From: a virus
Strand: one strand, 5' to 3'
Virus genome (UHGV): UHGV-2172388
DNA: 32,728 nucleotides
Shown: in pieces, positions 1 to 18,562 of the stretch
Layout: every line of letters begins with the position of its first letter
Numbering within the stretch: the stretch's first letter is position 1
Position numbers and translations under genes: made by a program
The notes under the pieces: generated by a model
Database searches by the model: none
Told to the model about the DNA's origin: nothing
What the model saw: only the letters and a program-made list of their open reading frames with translations

Positions 1-634
1 TGCTATGTCCCTTCATTGACGCTTTTCTATTTTCTCAGCGTGTTTTCCGCAAACTTTATTCACCCATATGGATACTTCGATTCCGAGCGGCGGCTGTCTT
101 GTTCACAATTTCGATCACGAGGTGCTCCTCTGGCGCATATTTAACGATCTGGAGGCTTGGGTCGAGAGAGCGGTTCTGACCAAAAGCGGGCATCGATGGC
201 ATCAGCACAGCGCTGCAATGCCCCCGGTTGTCGATACCATGGCATTTGCTGATAGGGTCACATGGTATTTGCTATATCTTCGATTCAGCGTCGGCCTTAT
301 ACCATGAAAAATGCCATTGATAATGCAGTCAATATCATCAATGGCACTCACTAAATCAAATAAAACAATAGTTTAAATAATAGCCTCACTCCCACTCGAT
401 TATCTACAGCCAACTTAATCAATTGATTTTAATAATCTAAATCGAGACCTACTACCCAATTTACCGTCAGTTTTACCGTCCACAGAAGAAAGTAACCCAA
501 CGGCAACGAGTTATCATTACCGGGCATATTAACATGCTGGCCAGTGGAAGAATGGGAAGTAAATGGCAGGCAAACATAATGGCTGCTTTTTAACCTATCT
601 ATATATACCAAAGTCCGTGGGGGCTTCGGAAAAA

Positions 635-2214: not shown

Positions 2215-3994
2215 CCGTACACCTTAATTAAGCCCCGCCCGCTGTTCGCGCCGCCGGAGCTTTCCAGTGGTTCATTGATAATGGCGTGCATACACGCCCA
2301 TGCCAGATCCGCGTGGGAGACTTCTTCCGAACGGCTGGCCTCGAAGGTTACCTGACGCCCGGACGGAGTCAGGGTTTTGCGGATCGCCATAAATGCCTGC
2401 GCCAGATCCGTCCATCCGGCGTCAAACTCCAGTCGGCGTTTACGGACAACGTCCAGCGTTTTCAGCACCAGACGCTGTTTCACTTCTGGGGAATAAGAGA
2501 ATGCCTGCACTGCCGGGAAGAACTGTTTCACCAGTTGATGCACGCCGTGGCCGATGCCGGTCACGTCAATACCGATGTAAGTCACGTTATAGCGCTCGGT
2601 AATTTTGCGGATATTTTCCGCCTGCGCCGCGAAGTCCATCCCGTGCCACTGGTGCTTTTCAATTACCCGAAACTTGCCGCCCTCAATGACCGGCGGCGCG
2701 ACCACCACGCATCCGGCGCTGTCGCCGCTTAACGCCGGATCGTAGCCCACCCATACCGAGCGTTCGCCGAGCGGACGCAGGGCAAACGGCTTGTAGTCGT
2801 CCCAGACTTCCCAGCTATCGACCATGCAACCCTGCAACATGCTGAGCGGGAATACCGATGCGGTATCGTCAATAAACTGGCACATAAACAGGTTGGCGAA
2901 CTCTTCCGGCGAGTTCTCCAGCCTGAGTTGCTCAAGGTCGAACAGGTCATAACCCTGATTGATGGCATCCTCAACGGTGACGATTTGCCGCCACTGGCCG
3001 TCTTCACACAACCGCCCTGCCGACAGCGCCCGATGGCTGATATCCAGTCGAATCTGTTCGCTCTTCGGCCTGCCCTTGTTGAACAGTTGCCCTGTCCAGA
3101 ACTTATAGGCTTCATGGGTGATGCTGGACGGCGTGGAGAAGTAGGTTTGCCGCCAGCGCTTCTGGCTGGCCATCCCCGCCGCGTTACGGCGCAGTTCCAG
3201 AAAGCGGTGTATCCAGAAGTATTCATCCAGATACAGGTTGCCATGATAGGTCTGGGCGGTGCGGGCATTAGTGCCGAGAAAATACATCCGGCTATCATTA
3301 TGCGGCAGGTGAATGACTTCGCCTTTCAGCTCAACATCCGCCTCACGAGCAAAATCGACAATGTACTGGCGGACTGGTGCGCCTGCGCTTTGGAAGCAGA
3401 GAGAAAGATCTGGTTGCGCCCACTTTCCACCGCATCCATAAACCCTTCCCGCCCGAAGAACATCGTCGCCCCAATCTGGCGCGACTTGTTGATATCGCGG
3501 ATACGGTGTTCCAGTCCGGCGCGGTACCAGTGTTTCTGGTGCGGATACAGCCCGTCCAGAAATAGCTGTTTCAGCTTCTCCGCCTGCTCCTCGCTGATAT
3601 GGTTGGTTTCCGGCTGTCTGCGCGGCCCGGCGTTACGCTTCGCAAGAGCAGGATTCAGGTCGACCTCATTGCCTCCCTGCTGATAGCGTTCAACCCTTGC
3701 CCCGCGCTCCATCTGCCGCCAGAGCAGGTCGATCTCCTTAAAATCCTTCCCCTCTTTATTTTCCTTCACCGTGAGCTGGATCAGACGCGCCTCGGTCACC
3801 GCCGTCACCCGCTCCAGCGGGGCGGATTCATCCCAGCCGTCGCGCCGCTTCCAGCTATGCAGCGTGGTAACTTTCACCCCCAACAGTTCGGCGATCCGCG
3901 CGATGCGAAAACCCTGCCAGTACAGATAGCGGGCTTTGCGGCGTGGATCTTCATCCTGAAGGGCAAGCAGATGTTTTTCGATGTCTGGCGGCAT
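2211..3994 (-). CDS. P: Terminase large (ATPase) subunit, P2 gpP-like, interrupted by an apparent frameshift near 3376-3392 (possible pseudogene or sequencing error)
   Basis: Two ORFs in different frames (3326..3994, 222 aa N-terminal part; 2211..3287, 358 aa nuclease part). The downstream frame stays open upstream to about 3500 and reads ...[17 protein letters not shown]... Together about 590 aa, the size of gpP. Confidence 0.8.
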
Positions 3995-4051: not shown

Positions 4052-4079
4052 CCGCTTGTAACCCGGATGATTACAAGCG
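4052..4079. promoter_or_regulatory. Late-promoter activator (Ogr-type) dyad CCGCTTGTA-N11-TACAAGCG upstream of O (possibly shared with divergent P-Q operon)
   Basis: Perfect dyad; centre 84 nt upstream of the O ATG; same motif recurs before X, V and FI. Confidence 0.6.
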
Positions 4080-6751: not shown

Positions 6752-7219
6752 ATGAGCTTTATTCAGGTTGCCCCCGCCGCCAGTCTGCCGGGGTTGGTTA
6801 TCAGCAACCACCCTTTCTTTCCCGATATTGATACGCAACATCTGCGTGCAACCCAACGGCTGGACAGCACCATTACCAACGAACGTCTGCGCGAGGCACT
6901 GCTGATTGCGCTGGCCAGCGTAAACGACGACCTGCGGGAATGGCGGCTGGAACAGGAAAACCGTGGCACAACTTACATTGCGGAAACCACGACCGAACGG
7001 CTGGACGGCGAAAGCGTTAACCAGCACCGCTACCGCCGCGCGGTGTACAGCCTGACGCACGCGAACCTGTTGGAACACTATCGTAACTTTGATGCCACCA
7101 CCCACGGCAGCAAACTGGCGGAACAGAAGGAAAGCATCGCTGACGATCTGGCGCGCGATGCCCGCTTCGCCGTGCGGGATATTCTGGGCAAGCCGCGCAG
7201 TACGTTTGTTCTGGTATAA
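6752..7219 (+). CDS. L: Head completion/stabilisation protein (P2 gpL-like)
   Basis: ATG at 6752 preceded by GGGAG RBS; the track ORF starts earlier at 6611 but the N-terminal extension lacks RBS context. Confidence 0.8.
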   Translation: MSFIQVAPAASLPGLVISNHPFFPDIDTQHLRATQRLDSTITNERLREALLIALASVNDDLREWRLEQENRGTTYIAETTTERLDGESVNQHRYRRAVYSLTHANLLEHYRNFDATTHGSKLAEQKESIADDLARDARFAVRDILGKPRSTFVLV

Positions 7220-7334
7220 AAAGAGTACGGATATGCGATGCGCATCACCGTATCGCCTCATCTGAACGCTGGATGCCCCTTCCCCACCAGAGTTAGTGTC
7301 TGACCCAACGAAAGAACCTACAGGGGAAAATACC

Positions 7335-7571
7335 ATGACTATTCAGGCCGCCAGAACCCGCCCAATGACCGATACCGCCCGCCGCATCAGAGACACCATA
7401 GTTAGCGTCGGCGTTCGCAGCACATGGCCGCTGAGCGATCTGGCCGACTACGCAGGTATAGAAATGGTTAACGCTGAATTTATTGTGACGCAGATGGAAC
7501 TGGCCGGTTACCTGAAGAAAACCCACTGGGGCCACTATATGTTAACCAGCGCGGGTATTGAGGCGGCATAA
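7335..7571 (+). CDS. Hypothetical small protein, possible winged-helix DNA-binding protein (accessory)
   Basis: 78-aa ORF from ATG 7335 with AGGGGAAAA upstream; not part of the P2 backbone; convergent with doc. Confidence 0.4.
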   Translation: MTIQAARTRPMTDTARRIRDTIVSVGVRSTWPLSDLADYAGIEMVNAEFIVTQMELAGYLKKTHWGHYMLTSAGIEAA

Positions 7572-7573
7572 TT

Positions 7574-7598
7574 AAAAACAGCCCGATCTGTCGGGCTG
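7574..7598 (-). terminator. Hairpin terminator between convergent genes (serves the doc transcript, possibly bidirectional)
   Basis: 8-bp stem CAGCCCGA/TCGGGCTG with 4-nt loop; A5 on the plus strand gives a T-run after the hairpin on the minus strand. Confidence 0.55.
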
Positions 7599-7603
7599 TA
7601 ACG

Positions 7604-7981
7604 TCAGGAAGCATTTACATCACTAAGGGTATAGAAAATATCGGCTAAATCATCCAGATTCAGCGTTCCCTCAGCCACATCCACCATAATATCTTCCAGC
7701 TTTTGTGTTCGCTTGAGGTTCACACCCTGCATATCAAGGTATGTCAACGCCGTCACCAGTGCCGTTCGCTTGTTGGCATCAGCAAAAACGTGCCCTCTGG
7801 CGATGGCAACCGCATAAGATGCGGCGATCTGGAAAATATCATTCATCTGCTCATACAGAATACGGTTATCCACCCGCGCCAGTGTTGCCTCGACCCGGCC
7901 AGCATCCTGATAACCAACCAATCCCGGCTCATGAGCAAGAATAAAATCGTGAATTCCAATCACCAAATGTGCATCAATCAT
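7604..7981 (-). CDS. doc: Doc-family toxin (Fic-fold kinase, death-on-curing)
   Basis: 125 aa; motif GHVFADANKRTAL matches the Doc/Fic signature HxFx(D/N)(A/G)NKR; overall layout resembles P1 Doc as recalled. Confidence 0.85.
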   Translation of the reverse strand: MIDAHLVIGIHDFILAHEPGLVGYQDAGRVEATLARVDNRILYEQMNDIFQIAASYAVAIARGHVFADANKRTALVTALTYLDMQGVNLKRTQKLEDIMVDVAEGTLNLDDLADIFYTLSDVNAS

Positions 7982-8166
7982 CGGTTAGCCAGCGCCTTAA
8001 TGACTTTGTTGTGTCTGGCATAAATACGTTCTGCCGACTTTTTAATCACACGCTCACCTTCCGGGCCGTCCAGTTTCATTTCGACGGGTACGAACTGCCC
8101 ACTCATACTGTCTCTTTTTACGACCTTGATACCGTATCGGCTGGCAGGACTGCTATTCTTCGCCAT
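7978..8166 (-). CDS. Putative Doc antitoxin, not Phd/YefM-like at the N-terminus (possibly AbrB/MazE-like), C-terminus ...NKVIKALANR
   Basis: 62-aa ORF, stop overlaps the doc start (ATGA); AGAGG RBS 10 nt upstream; C-terminal tail resembles the Doc-neutralising end of P1 Phd (...NKELVNR). Confidence 0.55.
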   Translation of the reverse strand: MAKNSSPASRYGIKVVKRDSMSGQFVPVEMKLDGPEGERVIKKSAERIYARHNKVIKALANR

Positions 8167-8212
8167 TATTTTTTACCTCTAATACTCTTTATTAAAAGTA
8201 TATACCTATCTG

Positions 8213-8392
8213 CTAATCTTTTGTTTCAATGCCTCGTGACTGAAGCTCTTTCCTGATAATTCGCTTAATCCACGCGGAAACAGAGGCATCACCATCAGCT
8301 TTAAGTGCCTGCTGAATTCCGGCCTCAAGAGCAGGATCTACTCGTAACGCGATTTGCTTACTGCCTTTGCCTTGAATAGAAATGGTTGACAC
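8213..8392 (-). CDS. Small ribbon-helix-helix-like protein (59 aa, GTG start), candidate regulator upstream of the antitoxin-doc pair
   Basis: Hand translation of the minus strand: VSTISIQGKGSKQIALRVDPALEAGIQQALKADGDASVSAWIKRIIRKELQSRGIETKD; AGGAG RBS 9 nt before GTG; below the 60-aa cutoff of the ORF track. Confidence 0.35.
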   Translation of the reverse strand: MSTISIQGKGSKQIALRVDPALEAGIQQALKADGDASVSAWIKRIIRKELQSRGIETKD

Positions 8393-8413
8393 TTGCTATA
8401 CTCCTGCTATATT
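8386..8413 (+). promoter_or_regulatory. Near-consensus sigma70 promoter TTGACA-16 nt-TATATT
   Basis: Direct reading; drives rightward toward ORFs 8527 and 8722. Confidence 0.45.
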
Positions 8414-8435
8414 TTCCTACAGTTAGTAAAGCAAG

Positions 8436-8455
8436 TGTATGACAACAGTCATACA
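8436..8455. promoter_or_regulatory. Perfect 8-4-8 palindrome TGTATGAC-AACA-GTCATACA (operator or leader hairpin)
   Basis: Direct reading; lies about 20-40 nt downstream of the -10 element. Confidence 0.45.
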
Positions 8456-8526
8456 AAAACAACGAAGCCCGCAGGTGCTACCAACACCAACGGGCCTCTG
8501 ACCACAACATTATTGAGGCTAATGCT

Positions 8527-8733
8527 ATGGCTACCGCTAATAGTAACATACGCGCACATTCAAAGCTCTACACCTTCCTGAACGCCCGTTCCAACCGCCT
8601 GCTGCGCGAGATCCAGCCATTGCGTCTGGTGTCCGTACTGGCAACAACAGAGATCGAGGCTCGCGACCTGCTGGCGGGTTTCCCGCTGGTATTTGTCTCC
8701 TGCAAGCCGCTGGAGGTGCGCCATGGTGCCTGA
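8527..8733 (+). CDS. Hypothetical protein (68 aa), accessory
   Basis: ORF with GAGG RBS; stop overlaps the next ORF start by 11 nt; no family recognised. Confidence 0.4.
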   Translation: MATANSNIRAHSKLYTFLNARSNRLLREIQPLRLVSVLATTEIEARDLLAGFPLVFVSCKPLEVRHGA

Positions 8734-9043
8734 AACCAACCTGCTTTCTTCCGAACTGGCCGATGTGATCCGCAAGCTGGATATTTCGAATCTCAACGCA
8801 GACGACACCCTGCAACTGGCCAACAGCAGCGAGGAGTGCTGCGCCGGATTGTGCCACGGCCTGCACTTTCTGGGTAAAACCTTCGTATCCTTCGCCGACA
8901 GCAACGTATTGGAGTTCTCACCGGAAAGCCTGTGCCAGTTAGGACACGGCCTGCTAGCCAGTGCACTGCTGATCCCGGCGCTGATCCAAATCCAGAAGTC
9001 CGCAGAACGGCAAATCATCAACACCGACACCGGCGAGGCATAA
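8722..9043 (+). CDS. Hypothetical protein (about 107 aa), accessory
   Basis: ATG 8722 (MVPETNLL...) overlapping the upstream ORF, suggesting translational coupling; no family recognised. Confidence 0.4.
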
Positions 9044-9058
9044 CCCCGCCAATCGCTC

Positions 9059-9087
9059 CCGCTTGTACTGCCCTCAGTTACAAGCGG
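9059..9087. promoter_or_regulatory. Late-promoter dyad CCGCTTGTA-N11-TACAAGCGG upstream of X and the lysis genes
   Basis: Perfect dyad; centre 84 nt upstream of the X ATG. Confidence 0.6.
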
Positions 9088-9156
9088 AAGCCTTCCCTTC
9101 ACTTCCCGCCCCTGTGCCACCATCCCCGCATCACCTGACGCCGCGTGGGAAACGCC

Positions 9157-9360
9157 ATGATCGTCTATAGCCTGCAAAACGAAACGCTCGACCAGATCTG
9201 CTGGCGCACCTTCGGGCGCACTGCCGGGATTGTCGAACGGCTTTACCGCGACAACCCGCGCCTGTGCGAACTGCCGCTGCGCCTGCCGCACGGTACGGCG
9301 GTGAACGTACCTGAACAGGCTTCCGCCGCCACGCGTCAACGAATCAACCTGTGGGACTGA
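9157..9360 (+). CDS. X: Tail protein X (LysM-like, P2 gpX)
   Basis: 67 aa from ATG 9157; MIVYSLQNETLDQICWRTFGRT...LPHGTAV...NLWD matches recalled gpX. Confidence 0.85.
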   Translation: MIVYSLQNETLDQICWRTFGRTAGIVERLYRDNPRLCELPLRLPHGTAVNVPEQASAATRQRINLWD

Positions 9361-9362
9361 CT

Positions 9363-9740
9363 ATGAACGAACCCGTAACCGGCACCGTCGTTGCCGCTTC
9401 CGTAAGCGCATTCTCCATTGCCACGCTGTTCCCGACGCTACAGGCTCCGGTAGTGCTAGGCGCATTGTGTGGCGCGCTGCTGCTGGTGATTTCGCAAAAA
9501 GAGATCGGCCTGTTCCTGCGCATCATTTTCTTCTGCGTGGCGTTTGTGATCGGCCTGCTGACCGCCGACCTGTTCACCGCGCTGGTCGCCGGATATCTGC
9601 CGCAGCATCTGATGGAAAAAGTCTCCCCTGGTATCGGGGCGCTGCTCTCATCGGCGCTGACCGTCAAGGCGCTGCTATGGGCCATCCGACAACTGGATAA
9701 CCCCGGTCAATTGCTCGACTTTTTAAGGGGACGCAAATGA
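9363..9740 (+). CDS. Holin (membrane protein with hydrophobic segments)
   Basis: 125 aa, strongly hydrophobic stretches; first gene of the lysis cassette. Confidence 0.65.
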   Translation: MNEPVTGTVVAASVSAFSIATLFPTLQAPVVLGALCGALLLVISQKEIGLFLRIIFFCVAFVIGLLTADLFTALVAGYLPQHLMEKVSPGIGALLSSALTVKALLWAIRQLDNPGQLLDFLRGRK

Positions 9741-10051
9741 AACTGATCCTGAGCCTTAACGCCATTATTTGCCTGCTGATTACCATCCGTCTGTTCCTCT
9801 ATCGCCGCGTTCACGGTACCACCTATCGCCCGCTGTATAGCTGGCTGGCGTGGCTGCTGATGTGCTGCACCGCATCGGTAGCGGTACTGATTTGTTTCAG
9901 CCTGTACCGCTACGTGTTTATCGCCGAAACCGCCATCAACATCGTGCTGCTGATTTGCCTGAGCGCTGCACGCGGCAATGTCGCCAGTCTGATTAAACCC
10001 TTACGTCACCACCCGAAGGAGCCACGCCATGACTCGTACACTCACCCATGA
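9737..10051 (+). CDS. Second small membrane protein of the lysis cassette (holin/antiholin-like)
   Basis: 104 aa, multiple hydrophobic helices; between holin and endolysin. Confidence 0.55.
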   Translation: MKLILSLNAIICLLITIRLFLYRRVHGTTYRPLYSWLAWLLMCCTASVAVLICFSLYRYVFIAETAINIVLLICLSAARGNVASLIKPLRHHPKEPRHDSYTHP

Positions 10052-12563: not shown

Positions 12564-12591
12564 CCGCTTGTAAAAATCCACAATACAAGCG
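12564..12591. promoter_or_regulatory. Late-promoter dyad CCGCTTGTA-N11-TACAAGCG upstream of V
   Basis: Perfect dyad starting immediately after the moron stop codon. Confidence 0.6.
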
Positions 12592-18523: not shown

Positions 18524-18562
18524 CCGCTTCTGCTTGTAGTGCCTGTGGTTACAAGTGGAAGC
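18524..18562. promoter_or_regulatory. Late-promoter dyad, degenerate copy (CTTGTA-N11-TACAAG core) upstream of FI
   Basis: Core TGT-N13-ACA spacing identical to the other three sites; centre 83 nt upstream of the FI ATG. Confidence 0.5.

What the first reader, a model, noticed from the sequence alone, without database searches (positions are those of the whole stretch)
8386..9043. Two overlapping small ORFs of unknown function behind a near-consensus promoter and a perfect 8-4-8 palindrome
Seen in sequence: TTGACA-16-TATATT promoter (8386-8413), then the palindrome TGTATGAC-AACA-GTCATACA (8436-8455) in the predicted leader, then two ORFs (68 and about 107 aa) overlapping by 11 nt, all upstream of the X late-promoter dyad. 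P2 has no genes here as I recall. Inference: an independently regulated accessory pair (possible toxin-antitoxin, anti-defence or superinfection-exclusion function).
Basis: seen in the sequence. Interest (0 to 1): 0.5.

Follow-up and report, generated by a model that had tools for sequence, protein, structure and literature searches.

The report
Antisense-guarded Icd-like operon in prophage
Two small cargo genes in a P2-like prophage sit behind a strong promoter but appear to be held off by a tiny divergent repressor and by an unannotated antisense RNA related to E. coli SymR, a layout typical of genes that harm the cell when expressed.

Summary
In detail: promoter, 8-4-8 palindrome, a 68-aa ORF and a 106-aa ORF overlapping by 11 nt, all in a 1.94-kb insert between genes L and X, which abut in P2.

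On the minus strand, 8532 to about 8455, lies a two-hairpin RNA of about 77 nt. It is complementary to the ribosome-binding site and start codon of ORF1. It is reciprocally detectable as a relative of the SymR antitoxin RNA of E. coli symE-symR, and its -10 lies in ORF1 codons 5-7, where the symR -10 lies in symE.

A divergent 59-aa ribbon-helix-helix-like gene (YlcI/YnfO-like) starts inside the -35 hexamer. The palindrome is most likely its operator, because repeat motifs change with regulator class across loci.

ORF1 is a marginal Icd-like protein. ORF2 is a rare three-helix protein with no known relatives. Related loci truncate or lose ORF1 but keep ORF2, the antisense gene and the overlap junction. 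So the pair is not a classical toxin-antitoxin pair.

Most likely this is a doubly repressed, SymE/SymR-style, toxin-like or abortive-infection cassette. The architecture is well supported. Expression and function are inferred.

The parts
8213..8392 (-). Divergent 59-aa regulator gene, ribbon-helix-helix type, YlcI/YnfO (DUF3950)-like. It starts with GTG, preceded by an AGGAG Shine-Dalgarno. Its first codons are the reverse complement of the -35 hexamer of the plus-strand promoter.
   Evidence: NCBIfam YlcI_YnfO_N E 4e-4, 20.4 bits against a cut-off of 30. PHROG Arc-like repressor E 6e-4. The same divergent gene is annotated 'YlcI/YnfO family protein' in the satellite islands L001 and L172. 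A relative in L066 hits Pfam DUF3950 at E 1.2e-8. Other relatives weakly hit the ribbon-helix-helix families HicB, RepB-RCR_reg and NikA-like. The gene is present next to the cassette in most related loci.
8386..8413 (+). Sigma-70 promoter of the ORF1-ORF2 operon: TTGACA, 16 nt, TATATT, with TG before the -10.
   Evidence: It matches 11 of 12 consensus positions. TTGAC(A/G) is kept at the same place, overlapping the start codon of the divergent gene, in every regulator class.
8436..8455 (.). Perfect 8-4-8 palindrome TGTATGAC-AACA-GTCATACA. It is the probable operator of the divergent regulator and lies at about +16 to +35 of the predicted sense transcript.
   Evidence: It is kept, 7 of 8 per arm, at the same position in loci whose regulator is 75-80% identical (L005, L008, L009, L046). 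Loci with other regulator classes carry other repeats there: TGTACACCAATGTACA, TGTAATTACA two or three times, GGTATATACC/TGTATACAC, and a GTGTACAC inverted repeat. The palindrome is not rarer than chance on its own. The simple scan also scores it as terminator-like on the minus strand.
8454..8532 (-). Predicted cis-antisense small RNA of about 77 nt, SymR-like. The 5' hairpin carries the anti-Shine-Dalgarno sequence in its loop. The 3' hairpin (plus-strand coordinates 8464-8498) has a covarying G+C-rich stem and is followed by GUUGUUUUUG. The RNA is complementary to the Shine-Dalgarno, the start codon and codon 2 of ORF1.
   Evidence: Rfam symR (RF01809) matches over the full model at 33.8 bits, E 6.7e-4. 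Model R1, built from 27 related loci, finds K-12 symR at exactly its annotated 5' end at 29.3 bits, E 3.7e-5. On the minus strand 96.6% of cells pair, against 78.8% on the plus strand; 114 cells are G.U (pair on minus only) and 13 are A.C (pair on plus only); 6 pairs covary. Minimum free energy is -39.3 kcal/mol (z -6.1) on minus and -20.1 (z -2.2) on plus.
8540..8548 (-). Extended -10 promoter of the antisense RNA, TGTTACTAT on the minus strand. It lies 7 nt upstream of the predicted +1 at 8532 and inside ORF1 codons 5-8.
   Evidence: TGnTAC(T/C/A)AT is kept at this fixed distance in all 25 distinct cassette sequences. It occupies the same nucleotides (+14 to +19 of the ORF) as the symR -10, which was inactivated experimentally by changing CATTCT in symE (PMC1891008).
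8527..8733 (+). ORF1: 68 aa, basic (pI 10.3), Icd-like. It probably also serves as the leader ORF for translational coupling to ORF2.
   Evidence: phrog_20855 E 1.5e-45. NCBIfam phage_ICD_like 24.1 bits against a cut-off of 25; 17 of 19 family members match. Relatives are named Icd-like by NCBI. hhalign against P1 Icd gives 73% probability over a 23-aa core. dN/dS is 0.07-0.25. AlphaFold2 gives a small alpha/beta fold at pLDDT 72 with no significant PDB match.
8723..9043 (+). ORF2: 106 aa, acidic (pI 4.4), three helices. It is the constant cargo of this cassette lineage. It has its own GGAGG at 8712-8716, and its ATG overlaps the end of ORF1 by 11 nt.
   Evidence: phrog_19484 E 2.6e-53. No Pfam, NCBIfam or PADLOC family. 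Only 38 representatives among 1.84 billion proteins, and all 40 confirmed genome loci are in Enterobacterales. AlphaFold2 pLDDT 87.4, helices 5-18, 26-59 and 67-103, with no fold match in PDB or BFVD. dN/dS is 0.07-0.20. Many relatives begin MAD-NS-T, which means they are fused directly to the cassette start.

Best explanation
The interval is the sense half of a compact, mobile, doubly repressed operon built like the E. coli symE-symR type I toxin-antitoxin locus, but carrying different proteins.

Shown by sequence and comparison:
1. A near-consensus promoter drives a 106-nt leader, then the Icd-like ORF1, then ORF2. ORF2 starts 11 nt before the ORF1 stop and has its own Shine-Dalgarno.
2. The opposite strand encodes a two-hairpin RNA of about 77 nt that is homologous to SymR. 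Its -10 lies in ORF1 codons 5-7. Its 5' end is at nucleotide 6 of ORF1. Its loop carries the anti-Shine-Dalgarno sequence.
3. A divergent 59-aa ribbon-helix-helix-like gene begins inside the -35 hexamer. The palindrome is a repeat that changes with the class of that regulator.
4. Both ORFs are under purifying selection.

Inferred mechanism:
- The small repressor binds the palindrome just downstream of the start site and keeps transcription low.
- A constitutive antisense RNA pairs with any escaped mRNA, blocks ribosome entry at ORF1 and probably triggers decay.
- ORF2 is translated mainly by ribosomes that finish ORF1, as P1 ant depends on icd. Blocking ORF1 therefore silences both genes.
- When repression is lost, the strong promoter outruns the convergent antisense promoter. 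The Icd-like protein and ORF2 then arrest growth or division. This would serve the prophage as abortive infection, superinfection exclusion or addiction. The trigger is unknown; infection, induction or loss of the element are candidates.
For: - Anatomy.
- SymR homology is reciprocal. The Rfam symR model hits 8532-8461 on the minus strand at E 6.7e-4. My model R1 hits K-12 symR at its annotated start at E 3.7e-5, and hits the satellite islands L001 and L172 at the start of their Icd-like genes.
- No spurious R1 hit of 29 bits or more appeared in 734 kb of unrelated viral DNA.
- Strand and structure.
- The antisense -10 is conserved at the position of the experimentally defined symR -10.
- Operator repeats change with the regulator's beta-strand class.
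- ORF1 is Icd-like.
- P1 precedent for an icd gene that overlaps ant, is needed for ant expression and is controlled by an antisense RNA: record annotation.
- The 11-nt (or 8-nt) overlap is kept even where ORF1 is reduced to 38-51 aa.
- Purifying selection.
- Contexts are toxin-antitoxin or defence islands and phage cargo slots.
- An Icd-like protein in a primase-bearing prophage element was reported as the likely effector of programmed cell death triggered by a phage accessory gene (bioRxiv 10.1101/2023.04.06.535777).
- SymE is repressed by LexA, by SymR and by Lon, which is the same layered logic (PMC1891008 abstract).
Against: - There are no expression data. The antisense RNA, both promoters and the coupling are predictions.
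- The Rfam score (33.8 bits) is well below the family's gathering score (61).
- The simple terminator scan did not call the antisense 3' hairpin, and the U-run is interrupted.
- No toxicity evidence exists. ORF2 has no family, fold or PADLOC match.
- ORF1 is 0.9 bit under the Icd-like cut-off, and BLASTP against P1 Icd finds nothing.
- The regulator is under the curated cut-off of its family, and no convincing promoter for it was found.
- In the upstream tandem copies in Photorhabdus, 5 of the 21 pairs of the modelled structure (mostly in the terminator stem) pair only on the plus strand.
- In the window the palindrome lies downstream of the -10, not over the promoter.
Confidence: 0.6

Rival explanations
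1. P1 immI-like switch. The Icd-like ORF1 is only the coupling leader, and ORF2 is an antirepressor-like factor that controls prophage induction or helper-satellite cross-talk. The antisense RNA would act as an immunity factor, as c4 does for icd-ant.
For: - P1 has c4 RNA, then icd, then an overlapping ant gene, and icd is needed for ant expression.
- ORF1 shares the Icd core motif.
- The same cassette heads the primase operon of satellite islands, where it would act as a lysogeny or replication switch.
Against: - ORF2 has no similarity to Ant or to any antirepressor family.
- The Rfam C4 model gives no hit at E <= 1, and P1 icd has no SymR-like antisense element.
- The cassette with ORF2 also sits in chromosomal defence and toxin-antitoxin islands with no phage around it.
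- The cargo behind the cassette varies between unrelated proteins.
Confidence: 0.15
2. One reading: ORF1 and ORF2 form a type II toxin-antitoxin pair, one protein neutralising the other, autoregulated through the palindrome.
For: - The two small genes overlap.
- One protein is basic (pI 10.3) and the other acidic (pI 4.4).
- The neighbours are toxin-antitoxin modules: Doc here, RelE/ParE in L002, Gp49/HTH_37 pairs and TacAT elsewhere.
Against: - ORF1 is truncated to about 38 aa (Kosakonia), is 41-51 aa in other loci, or is absent with ORF2 fused to the start (Pectobacterium and many representatives). ORF2 persists in all of these.
- ORF1-type leaders precede unrelated cargo.
- Neither protein matches a toxin-antitoxin or PADLOC family.
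- The DNA-binding candidate is the separate divergent gene.
Confidence: 0.1
3. The conserved leader works on the plus strand only, as a C4/CI-like processed RNA, an attenuator or an mRNA-stabilising hairpin. No antisense RNA is made.
For: - The hairpins are partly palindromic, so they can also fold in the mRNA.
- The upstream Photorhabdus copies pair better on the plus strand.
- P1 and P4 use same-strand leader RNAs to control icd or early operons (for P1; my own knowledge for P4).
Against: - 114 cells pair only on the minus strand (G.U) against 13 that pair only on the plus strand (A.C).
- Three invariant G.U pairs in the 5' hairpin would be A.C on the plus strand.
- The minus strand folds about twice as stably in all cassettes linked to ORF2.
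- The U-rich tail follows the hairpin only on the minus strand.
- A -10 is conserved at a fixed distance on the minus strand.
- Homology is to SymR on that strand.
Confidence: 0.05

Closest known systems
E. coli K-12 symE-symR (type I toxin-antitoxin; SymR RNA, Rfam RF01809)
   Same: - The antisense RNA is about 77 nt and starts at nucleotide 6 of the target ORF.
- Its -10 lies at nucleotides +14 to +19 of the ORF.
- It has two hairpins, with the anti-Shine-Dalgarno sequence in the first loop and a GUGUUGG...GCAC loop in the second.
- The leader is recognisably similar in sequence.
- There is an additional transcriptional repressor site at the sense promoter.
   Different: - The protein is not SymE (AbrB fold). 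Here it is an Icd-like ORF plus a three-helix protein.
- The repressor site is not a LexA box. It is the operator of a divergently encoded small regulator.
- The Rfam score is below the gathering threshold.
- Two translationally linked ORFs replace one.
Phage P1 immI operon (c4 RNA - icd - ant1/ant2)
   Same: - A small Icd-type ORF comes first.
- Its end overlaps the start of the next gene, which depends on its translation.
- The ribosome-binding site is masked by an antisense RNA.
- A core Icd motif is shared.
   Different: - c4 is encoded upstream on the same strand and acts through short loop complementarities. Here the RNA is a true cis-antisense transcript.
- There is no C4 family hit.
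- The downstream gene is unrelated to ant.
YlcI/YnfO-family gene divergent from an 'Icd-like' gene at the head of the primase operon in E. coli satellite islands (PICI or P4-like)
   Same: - The divergent small regulator, a TTGAC-type promoter with regulator-specific repeats, the SymR-like antisense cassette and an Icd-like first ORF are all shared.
- The 47-nt hairpin region is 91-93% identical to the window.
   Different: - There the operon continues into DUF4222 and primase genes, i.e. satellite replication. Here it carries only ORF2 and sits in a late-gene cargo slot of a P2-like prophage.
- As far as I could find, the antisense RNA has not been described for those islands either.
Type II toxin-antitoxin modules with ribbon-helix-helix antitoxins
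   Same: Small overlapping genes, a palindromic operator, a ribbon-helix-helix-like DNA binder, and location among other toxin-antitoxin modules.
   Different: - The DNA binder is divergently transcribed and is too short to carry a toxin-binding tail.
- No toxin family is recognised.
- One of the two ORFs is dispensable in relatives.

Membership tests
SymR antisense RNA (Rfam RF01809) | The covariance-model score reaches the curated gathering threshold of 61 bits. | tested here: not met
   33.8 bits, E 6.7e-4, full model 1-77, minus strand 8532-8461. The relative in L002 scores 25.8 bits.
SymR antisense RNA (Rfam RF01809) | Reciprocal detectability: a model of this RNA family finds the genuine symR gene. 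| tested here: met
   R1 hits K-12 L043 3836-3923 on the plus strand at 29.3 bits, E 3.7e-5. symR is annotated at 3836-3912. No hit of comparable score appeared in 734 kb of unrelated loci.
SymR antisense RNA (Rfam RF01809) | [quoted passage not shown] | tested here: met
   The predicted 5' end at 8532 is nucleotide 6 of ORF1. TACTAT lies at nucleotides +14 to +19, the same place as TAGAAT (CATTCT in sense) of symR. This rests on sequence only; the transcript start was not measured.
SymR antisense RNA (Rfam RF01809) | Two-hairpin secondary structure, supported on the antisense strand. | tested here: met
   96.6% of cells pair, 6 pairs covary, and 0 of 500 shuffles reach the observed covariation score. 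The plus strand pairs at 78.8%. z is -6.1 on minus against -2.2 on plus.
SymR antisense RNA (Rfam RF01809) | The target gene encodes SymE (AbrB/MazE-like fold). | tested here: not met
   ORF1 is Icd-like and ORF2 is helical. Neither has an AbrB/SpoVT hit.
Type I toxin-antitoxin system | The protein is toxic when over-produced, and the RNA prevents its synthesis. | not testable with these tools
   This needs induction and toxicity assays and -10 mutants of the antisense promoter.
Icd-like host cell division inhibitor (NCBIfam NF033153) | The score reaches the curated cut-off of 25 bits. | tested here: not met
   ORF1 scores 24.1 bits, E 2.8e-5, over residues 28-57. 17 of 19 close relatives match at E <= 0.01, the best at 1.1e-6, and several are named Icd-like by NCBI.
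Icd-like host cell division inhibitor (NCBIfam NF033153) | Detectable similarity to P1 Icd itself. | tested here: inconclusive
   BLASTP finds nothing. hhalign of the family profile gives 73% probability over 23 residues: SVLATTEIEARDLLAGFPLVFVS against FVIAATEDEARSQLPDGPCIFTA.
Icd-like host cell division inhibitor (NCBIfam NF033153) | Inhibits cell division, giving filamentation. | not testable with these tools
   This needs expression and microscopy.
P1 immI-type module (c4-icd-ant) | A C4-family RNA (RF01695) lies upstream on the same strand. | tested here: not met
   No C4 hit at E <= 1 in the window 7000-10000 or in L001 and L002.
P1 immI-type module (c4-icd-ant) | The icd stop overlaps the start of the downstream gene (translational coupling). 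| tested here: met
   The overlap is 11 nt with GGAGG 6 nt upstream of the ORF2 ATG. An overlap of 8-11 nt is kept in relatives. P1 icd and ant1 overlap by 4 nt. The coupling itself was not measured.
P1 immI-type module (c4-icd-ant) | The downstream gene is an Ant-type antirepressor. | tested here: not met
   ORF2 has no Pfam, PHROG-function or PDB match to antirepressors.
YlcI/YnfO (DUF3950) small regulators | The score reaches the curated cut-off (NF041551, 30 bits; or Pfam PF13132). | tested here: not met
   The window protein scores 20.4 bits, E 4e-4, and has no Pfam hit. The positional homologues in L001 and L172 are annotated as this family, and the L066 homologue hits PF13132 at E 1.2e-8.
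Type II toxin-antitoxin pair (ORF1 with ORF2) | The two partners co-occur obligatorily, and a toxin or antitoxin domain is recognisable. | tested here: not met
   ORF1 is truncated or absent in many ORF2 loci. There are no toxin-antitoxin or PADLOC hits.

The most novel reading that the evidence does not exclude
symE-symR would be only one member of a much larger, unrecognised family of portable 'safety-catch' cassettes. Each cassette has a sense promoter with a repressor site, a leader, and an embedded SymR-type antisense gene whose promoter is written into the first codons of whatever ORF follows.

In Enterobacterales this cassette is usually paired with a divergent DUF3950 ribbon-helix-helix repressor and an Icd-like leader ORF. 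It has been recombined in front of unrelated cargo:
- the ORF2 family described here;
- at least two other helical protein families;
- the replication operons of PICI or P4-like satellites.

It is found in prophage cargo slots, satellites and defence islands. On this reading, many annotated 'Icd-like' genes are antisense-controlled coupling leaders, and ORF2 is a new toxin or abortive-infection effector.
Probability: 0.45. Interest if true: 0.7.

Novelty: new variant of a known kind. Interest (0 to 1): 0.55.

Why it matters
- If the antisense RNA is real, a textbook single-locus system (symE-symR) becomes a modular control device that phages, satellites and defence islands share to keep harmful genes silent.
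- It would explain how 'Icd-like' genes, which are annotated in many E. coli and Enterobacter satellites, are regulated.
- It would explain the conserved N-terminal peptides MA-ANS-(N/T) and MS(T): they are imprints of promoters on the opposite strand.
- It gives a concrete handle for testing the function of ORF2 and the other cargo proteins as candidate abortive-infection or exclusion effectors. Silent -10 mutations and deletion of the small repressor gene should release them.
- It flags a probable annotation artefact, the long N-terminal extensions on Icd-like proteins.
- It identifies an insulated cargo slot between L and X in one P2-like lineage.

Tried and rejected
- Nucleotide and tblastn searches of 50,697 phage records with the interval and both proteins found essentially nothing. 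The only result was one chance-level Bacteroides phage hit.
- Pfam, NCBIfam and PADLOC gave no family for ORF2.
- PDB sequence searches gave nothing for ORF1, ORF2 or the regulator.
- Foldseek of the ORF2 model against PDB and BFVD, and of the ORF1 model against PDB, returned only generic helical-hairpin or small alpha/beta matches, all with E > 0.1. The afdb50 library was unavailable.
- The profile search for ORF2 returned a few long RCC1-repeat proteins. I rejected these as motif artefacts, because FGQLGR resembles LCQLGH.
- I first suspected a P1 c4 or P4 CI-type leader RNA on the plus strand. I rejected it because the Rfam C4 model gives no hit and because of the strand asymmetry of pairing.
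- A LexA box at the palindrome was considered and rejected by inspection. There is no CTGT-N8-ACAG, unlike the symE promoter.
- A Cys2His2 metal site in ORF2 (C44/H45 and C71/H75) was considered. It is not conserved in distant family members.
- A transmembrane helix in ORF2 is possible in this member (Kyte-Doolittle 19-residue mean 1.77 at residues 70-88). It does not look conserved in relatives.
- The terminator-like hairpin inside ORF1 (8669-8691) was considered as a translation-sensitive attenuator, but it is not conserved in L003.
- The two other cargo proteins are not detectably related to ORF2.
- Literature searches found no description of SymR-like RNAs at Icd-like or other genes. The library is limited to open-access papers.
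Full report
**Context**

The window is a P2-like prophage, and the 681-bp stretch queried (8380-9060) is 100% identical to the chromosome of E. coli GMF054. The head-completion gene L ends at 7219. Tail gene X (Pfam Phage_tail_X, E 7e-17) starts at 9157. In P2 itself, L ends and X starts at the same nucleotide. The 1.94 kb between them here is therefore inserted cargo. It contains:

- a 91-aa ORF of unknown function (7296-7571, plus strand);
- a Doc toxin gene (7604-7981, minus strand; TIGR01550, 88 bits), with a 62-aa upstream partner that overlaps it by 4 nt;
- a 59-aa gene (8213-8392, minus strand);
- the two ORFs of the finding.

A TTGTA-N11-TACAA dyad at 9063-9083 is one of four in the window. 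Each lies just upstream of a late operon. The cargo slot is therefore followed by its own late-promoter-type site.

**Checking the observation**

Every feature is at the stated coordinates.

| Feature | Coordinates | Note |
|---|---|---|
| Promoter TTGACA-16-TATATT | 8386-8413 | 11 of 12 matches, TG before the -10 |
| Palindrome TGTATGAC-AACA-GTCATACA | 8436-8455 | perfect 8-4-8 |
| ORF1 | 8527-8733 | 68 aa |
| ORF2 | 8723-9043 | 106 aa |
| Overlap | 8723-8733 | 11 nt |

Neither the palindrome nor a promoter-like site is statistically unusual by itself. The window has 6 comparable palindromes against 3.2 +/- 2.1 in shuffles. The promoter scan found 2 sites against 1.0 +/- 1.0 expected. Their weight comes from conservation, described below. 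Both ORFs are genuine genes. Pairwise dN/dS against relatives is 0.07-0.25 for ORF1 and 0.07-0.20 for ORF2.

**What the proteins are**

ORF1 matches phrog_20855 and ORF2 matches phrog_19484, both of unknown function.

ORF1:
- It scores 24.1 bits on NCBIfam 'phage_ICD_like', whose cut-off is 25.
- 17 of 19 close relatives match that model, and NCBI names several of them Icd-like.
- BLASTP against P1 Icd finds nothing. A profile comparison aligns a 23-residue core at 73% probability.
- The AlphaFold2 model is a small alpha/beta fold (pLDDT 72) with no significant structural neighbour.

ORF2:
- It has no Pfam, NCBIfam or PADLOC family.
- Only 38 representatives were found in a library of 1.84 billion proteins.
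- All 40 confirmed genome loci are in Enterobacterales.
- The model is confident (pLDDT 87) and shows three helices, with no fold match in PDB or BFVD.

ORF1 is basic and ORF2 is acidic.

**The other half of the unit**

A BLAST search of the interval against E. coli genomes gave an unexpected result. A 47-nt piece of the leader (8462-8508) is 91-93% identical to about 20 loci, and a wider search found 61 genomes. The two such loci I inspected (L001, L172) lie immediately upstream of 'host cell division inhibitor Icd-like' genes in integrase, AlpA and primase islands. In both, a 'YlcI/YnfO family protein' gene is divergently transcribed. This is the same arrangement as the 59-aa gene here.

An Rfam scan of 7000-10000 gave a single hit. 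It was the SymR antitoxin RNA, full model, on the minus strand at 8532-8461 (33.8 bits, E 6.7e-4; the gathering score is 61).

**Comparative anatomy**

Forty genome loci encode ORF2 relatives. All those with upstream sequence carry one conserved block:

AACGnnGCCC-stem-GTGC...ACAC-stem-GGGCnTCTRACCACAACATTA-[Shine-Dalgarno]-TAATGCTATGGCTnnnnnnRATRGTAWCA

I aligned 27 distinct copies as minus-strand RNA. RNAalifold predicts two hairpins:

- a 5' hairpin with the anti-Shine-Dalgarno sequence in its loop;
- a 3' G+C-rich hairpin followed by a U-rich tail.

On that structure, 96.6% of cells form standard pairs. Six pairs of the 3' stem show compensatory changes. No shuffle out of 500 reaches the observed covariation score, and slid controls fall to 34-56% pairing.

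The strand is decided by wobble pairs:

| Measure | Minus strand | Plus strand |
|---|---|---|
| Cells that pair only on this strand | 114 (G.U) | 13 (A.C) |
| Overall pairing | 96.6% | 78.8% |
| Minimum free energy, cassettes linked to ORF2 | -30 to -42 kcal/mol | -17 to -27 kcal/mol |
| Window copy, energy and z-score | -39.3, z -6.1 | -20.1, z -2.2 |

Three G.U pairs in the 5' hairpin are invariant. The U-rich tail follows the hairpin only on the minus strand.

Upstream of the predicted 5' end, every copy keeps an extended -10, TGnTAC(T/C/A)AT, exactly 7 nt from the A of AGCCAU.

**Relationship to SymR**

I fetched K-12 symE-symR. The two loci correspond as follows.

- The sense leaders align: hairpin with a GTGC..CCAACAC loop, then TC.CT.A.CACAA, then a short stem that presents the Shine-Dalgarno, then ATG(A/G)CT.
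- SymR starts at nucleotide 6 of symE. The RNA here starts at nucleotide 6 of ORF1.
- The symR -10 that Kawano et al. inactivated (CATTCT in symE, PMC1891008) occupies nucleotides +14 to +19 of the ORF. TACTAT does the same here.
- My covariance model R1 was built only from the new loci. It finds K-12 symR at its annotated start (29.3 bits, E 3.7e-5). It also finds the islands L001 and L172 at the start of their Icd-like genes.
- In 734 kb of unrelated viral loci, R1 found only 12 hits, all of 70 bits or more.

The homology is therefore reciprocal, although it is below Rfam's curated threshold. The Rfam C4 model, which I had expected because of P1 c4-icd, gives no hit. P1 icd has no SymR-like element.

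**The regulator and the palindrome**

The divergent gene products align over their full length. The pattern is a short variable N-terminus, x-x-x-R-(V/L), helix, DGD, then W-I-K-R-x-x-R-K-E-L. This is a ribbon-helix-helix layout. The supporting hits are:

- weak matches to Arc-like, HicB, RepB-regulator and NikA models;
- one clear DUF3950 hit;
- YlcI/YnfO annotation of the positional homologues in L001 and L172.

Their start codon plus the next four bases are the reverse complement of the TTGACA(T/C) of the sense promoter, in every class.

Between that promoter and the antisense terminator, each class of regulator has its own repeats. The classes are defined by the predicted DNA-reading beta-strand.

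| Class or loci | Repeats |
|---|---|
| Window class (L005, L008, L009, L046) | TGTATGAC...GTC(A/T)TACA, at the same position as the window palindrome |
| Second class | TGTACACCAATGTACA and TGGT repeats |
| Third class | TGTAATTACA, two or three copies |
| Photorhabdus | GGTATATACC and TGTATACAC |
| L029 | a GTGTACAC inverted repeat |

No convincing promoter for that gene was found. It may be expressed by read-through of the antisense terminator. That is speculation.

**ORF1 against ORF2**

ORF2 is the constant element in this lineage.

- Kosakonia and Enterobacter: ORF1 is reduced to about 38 aa. It keeps only its first codons and the ...QEVRNAA end that overlaps the ORF2 ATG by 11 nt.
- One Photorhabdus set: ORF1 is about 51 aa.
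- Pectobacterium, Brenneria, Symbiopectobacterium, Serratia and many library representatives: ORF2 is fused in frame to the conserved MAD-(T/A)-(D/N)-S-(N/T)-T start.

In viral contigs the same cassette, with short or full Icd-like leaders, precedes unrelated proteins of 133-136 aa, again with 8-nt overlaps.

The Icd-like ORF therefore behaves as a dispensable leader whose junction with the cargo is preserved. P1 behaves the same way: icd overlaps ant and is 'apparently required for expression of ant' (record annotation). This argues against ORF1 and ORF2 being a mutually neutralising pair.

**Genomic contexts**

- Window: next to a Doc-type module.
- E. coli L725 (L002): the same L-X slot, next to RelE/ParE-HTH.
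- Kosakonia: a chromosomal island with SIR2_2 and an ATPase, a 1315-aa protein, and TacA-GNAT.
- Photorhabdus: the edge of a P2-type tail cluster, with two Gp49/HTH_37 pairs and a tandem duplicate of the cassette.

The unit moves as regulator, promoter and operator, antisense gene, and cargo, and it settles among toxin-antitoxin and defence genes.

**Mechanism proposed**

Shown:
- the parts, their homology and their conservation;
- the strand asymmetry of the RNA structure;
- purifying selection on both ORFs.

Inferred:
- The ribbon-helix-helix protein represses the strong sense promoter from the palindrome at about +16 to +35.
- The antisense RNA, made from a promoter that needs no -35, pairs with the Shine-Dalgarno loop and start codon of any escaped mRNA. 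It blocks ORF1 translation and hence coupled ORF2 translation.
- On loss of repression, the convergent strong promoter wins and the proteins are made.
- Their effect is most likely growth or division arrest that serves exclusion, abortive infection or addiction.

The functional guess rests on four points:
- the Icd-like relationship;
- the symE analogy, in which repression is by LexA, SymR and Lon (PMC1891008);
- the neighbourhood of toxin-antitoxin and defence genes;
- a preprint reporting an Icd-like protein of a primase-bearing prophage element as the likely effector of cell death triggered by a phage accessory gene (10.1101/2023.04.06.535777).

None of this has been tested for these proteins.

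**Novelty and verdict**

- The two ORFs themselves are catalogued families of unknown function, and ORF1 relatives are already named Icd-like.
- What appears to be new is the SymR-family antisense gene and the small divergent repressor as a shared control cassette for Icd-like leaders and variable cargo. I found no description of it in the searchable literature, and Rfam does not annotate it at its threshold.
- I classify it as a new variant of a known kind, an antisense-controlled toxin-like module of the symE-symR type.
- The anatomy is well supported. Expression and function remain to be shown.

Noticed in passing
window 7604-8166 (minus strand): A Doc-family toxin gene (7604-7981; TIGR01550, 88 bits) is preceded by a 62-aa ORF (7978-8166) that overlaps it by 4 nt. 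The 62-aa ORF is probably a Phd-like antitoxin, but it matches no family except phrog_11529. A GTATATAC palindrome lies in the 46-nt gap upstream.
   Followed up: partly
window 7296-7571 (plus strand) and 7578-7599: A 91-aa ORF (phrog_331, with weak winged-helix-like hits) lies directly after L. It is followed by the perfect palindrome ACAGCCCGATCTGTCGGGCTGT, between it and the convergent doc gene. This is probably a bidirectional terminator.
   Followed up: no
window 4056-4076, 9063-9083, 12568-12588, 18534-18554: Four TTGTA-N11-TACAA dyads, each just upstream of a late operon (O, X, V and FI-like positions). P2 has no gap and no promoter between L and X. This lineage seems to have gained an extra late-promoter-type site in front of X, creating an insulated cargo slot.
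   Followed up: partly
window 8669-8691 (plus strand): A terminator-like hairpin with a T-rich tail lies inside ORF1, in the codons for LLAGFPLVFVS. It could act as a translation-sensitive attenuator ahead of ORF2, but it is not conserved in L003.
   Followed up: partly
L012 2458-2540 and 3674-3756 (also L014-L016, L026, L048-L050): Photorhabdus carries two tandem copies of the regulator and cassette unit. In the upstream copy, 5 of the 21 modelled pairs (mostly in the terminator stem) pair only on the plus strand. Either the antisense terminator has decayed or this copy is used differently.
   Followed up: no
L052, L092, L125 (viral contigs); L066: The same SymR-like cassette with a short or full Icd-like leader precedes unrelated cargo. 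One type is a 135-136-aa protein with an internal duplication. The other is a 133-aa protein. Both overlap the leader ORF by 8 nt, and neither has a Pfam family.
   Followed up: partly
L001 2932-3309; L172 3573-3776: RefSeq annotates the L001 'Icd-like' CDS as 125 aa, running through the promoter, the leader and the antisense gene. The cassette places the real start at 3070, giving 79 aa. The 'long N-terminal extension' reported for some Icd-like proteins may be a start-codon artefact.
   Followed up: partly
window 8386-8392 and 8539-8548, and all related loci: The first codons of each divergent gene encode the other strand's promoter element. The MS(T) start of the regulator is the reverse complement of the -35 TTGACA. 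ORF1 codons 5-7 are the reverse complement of the antisense -10. This explains why short N-terminal peptides are conserved across otherwise unrelated proteins.
   Followed up: yes
window 8527-9043 compared with L002: Synonymous divergence between the window and E. coli L725 jumps from 0.14 in ORF1 to 0.70 in ORF2. Upstream of the hairpin the regulator class differs completely. This suggests recombination breakpoints inside the module.
   Followed up: no
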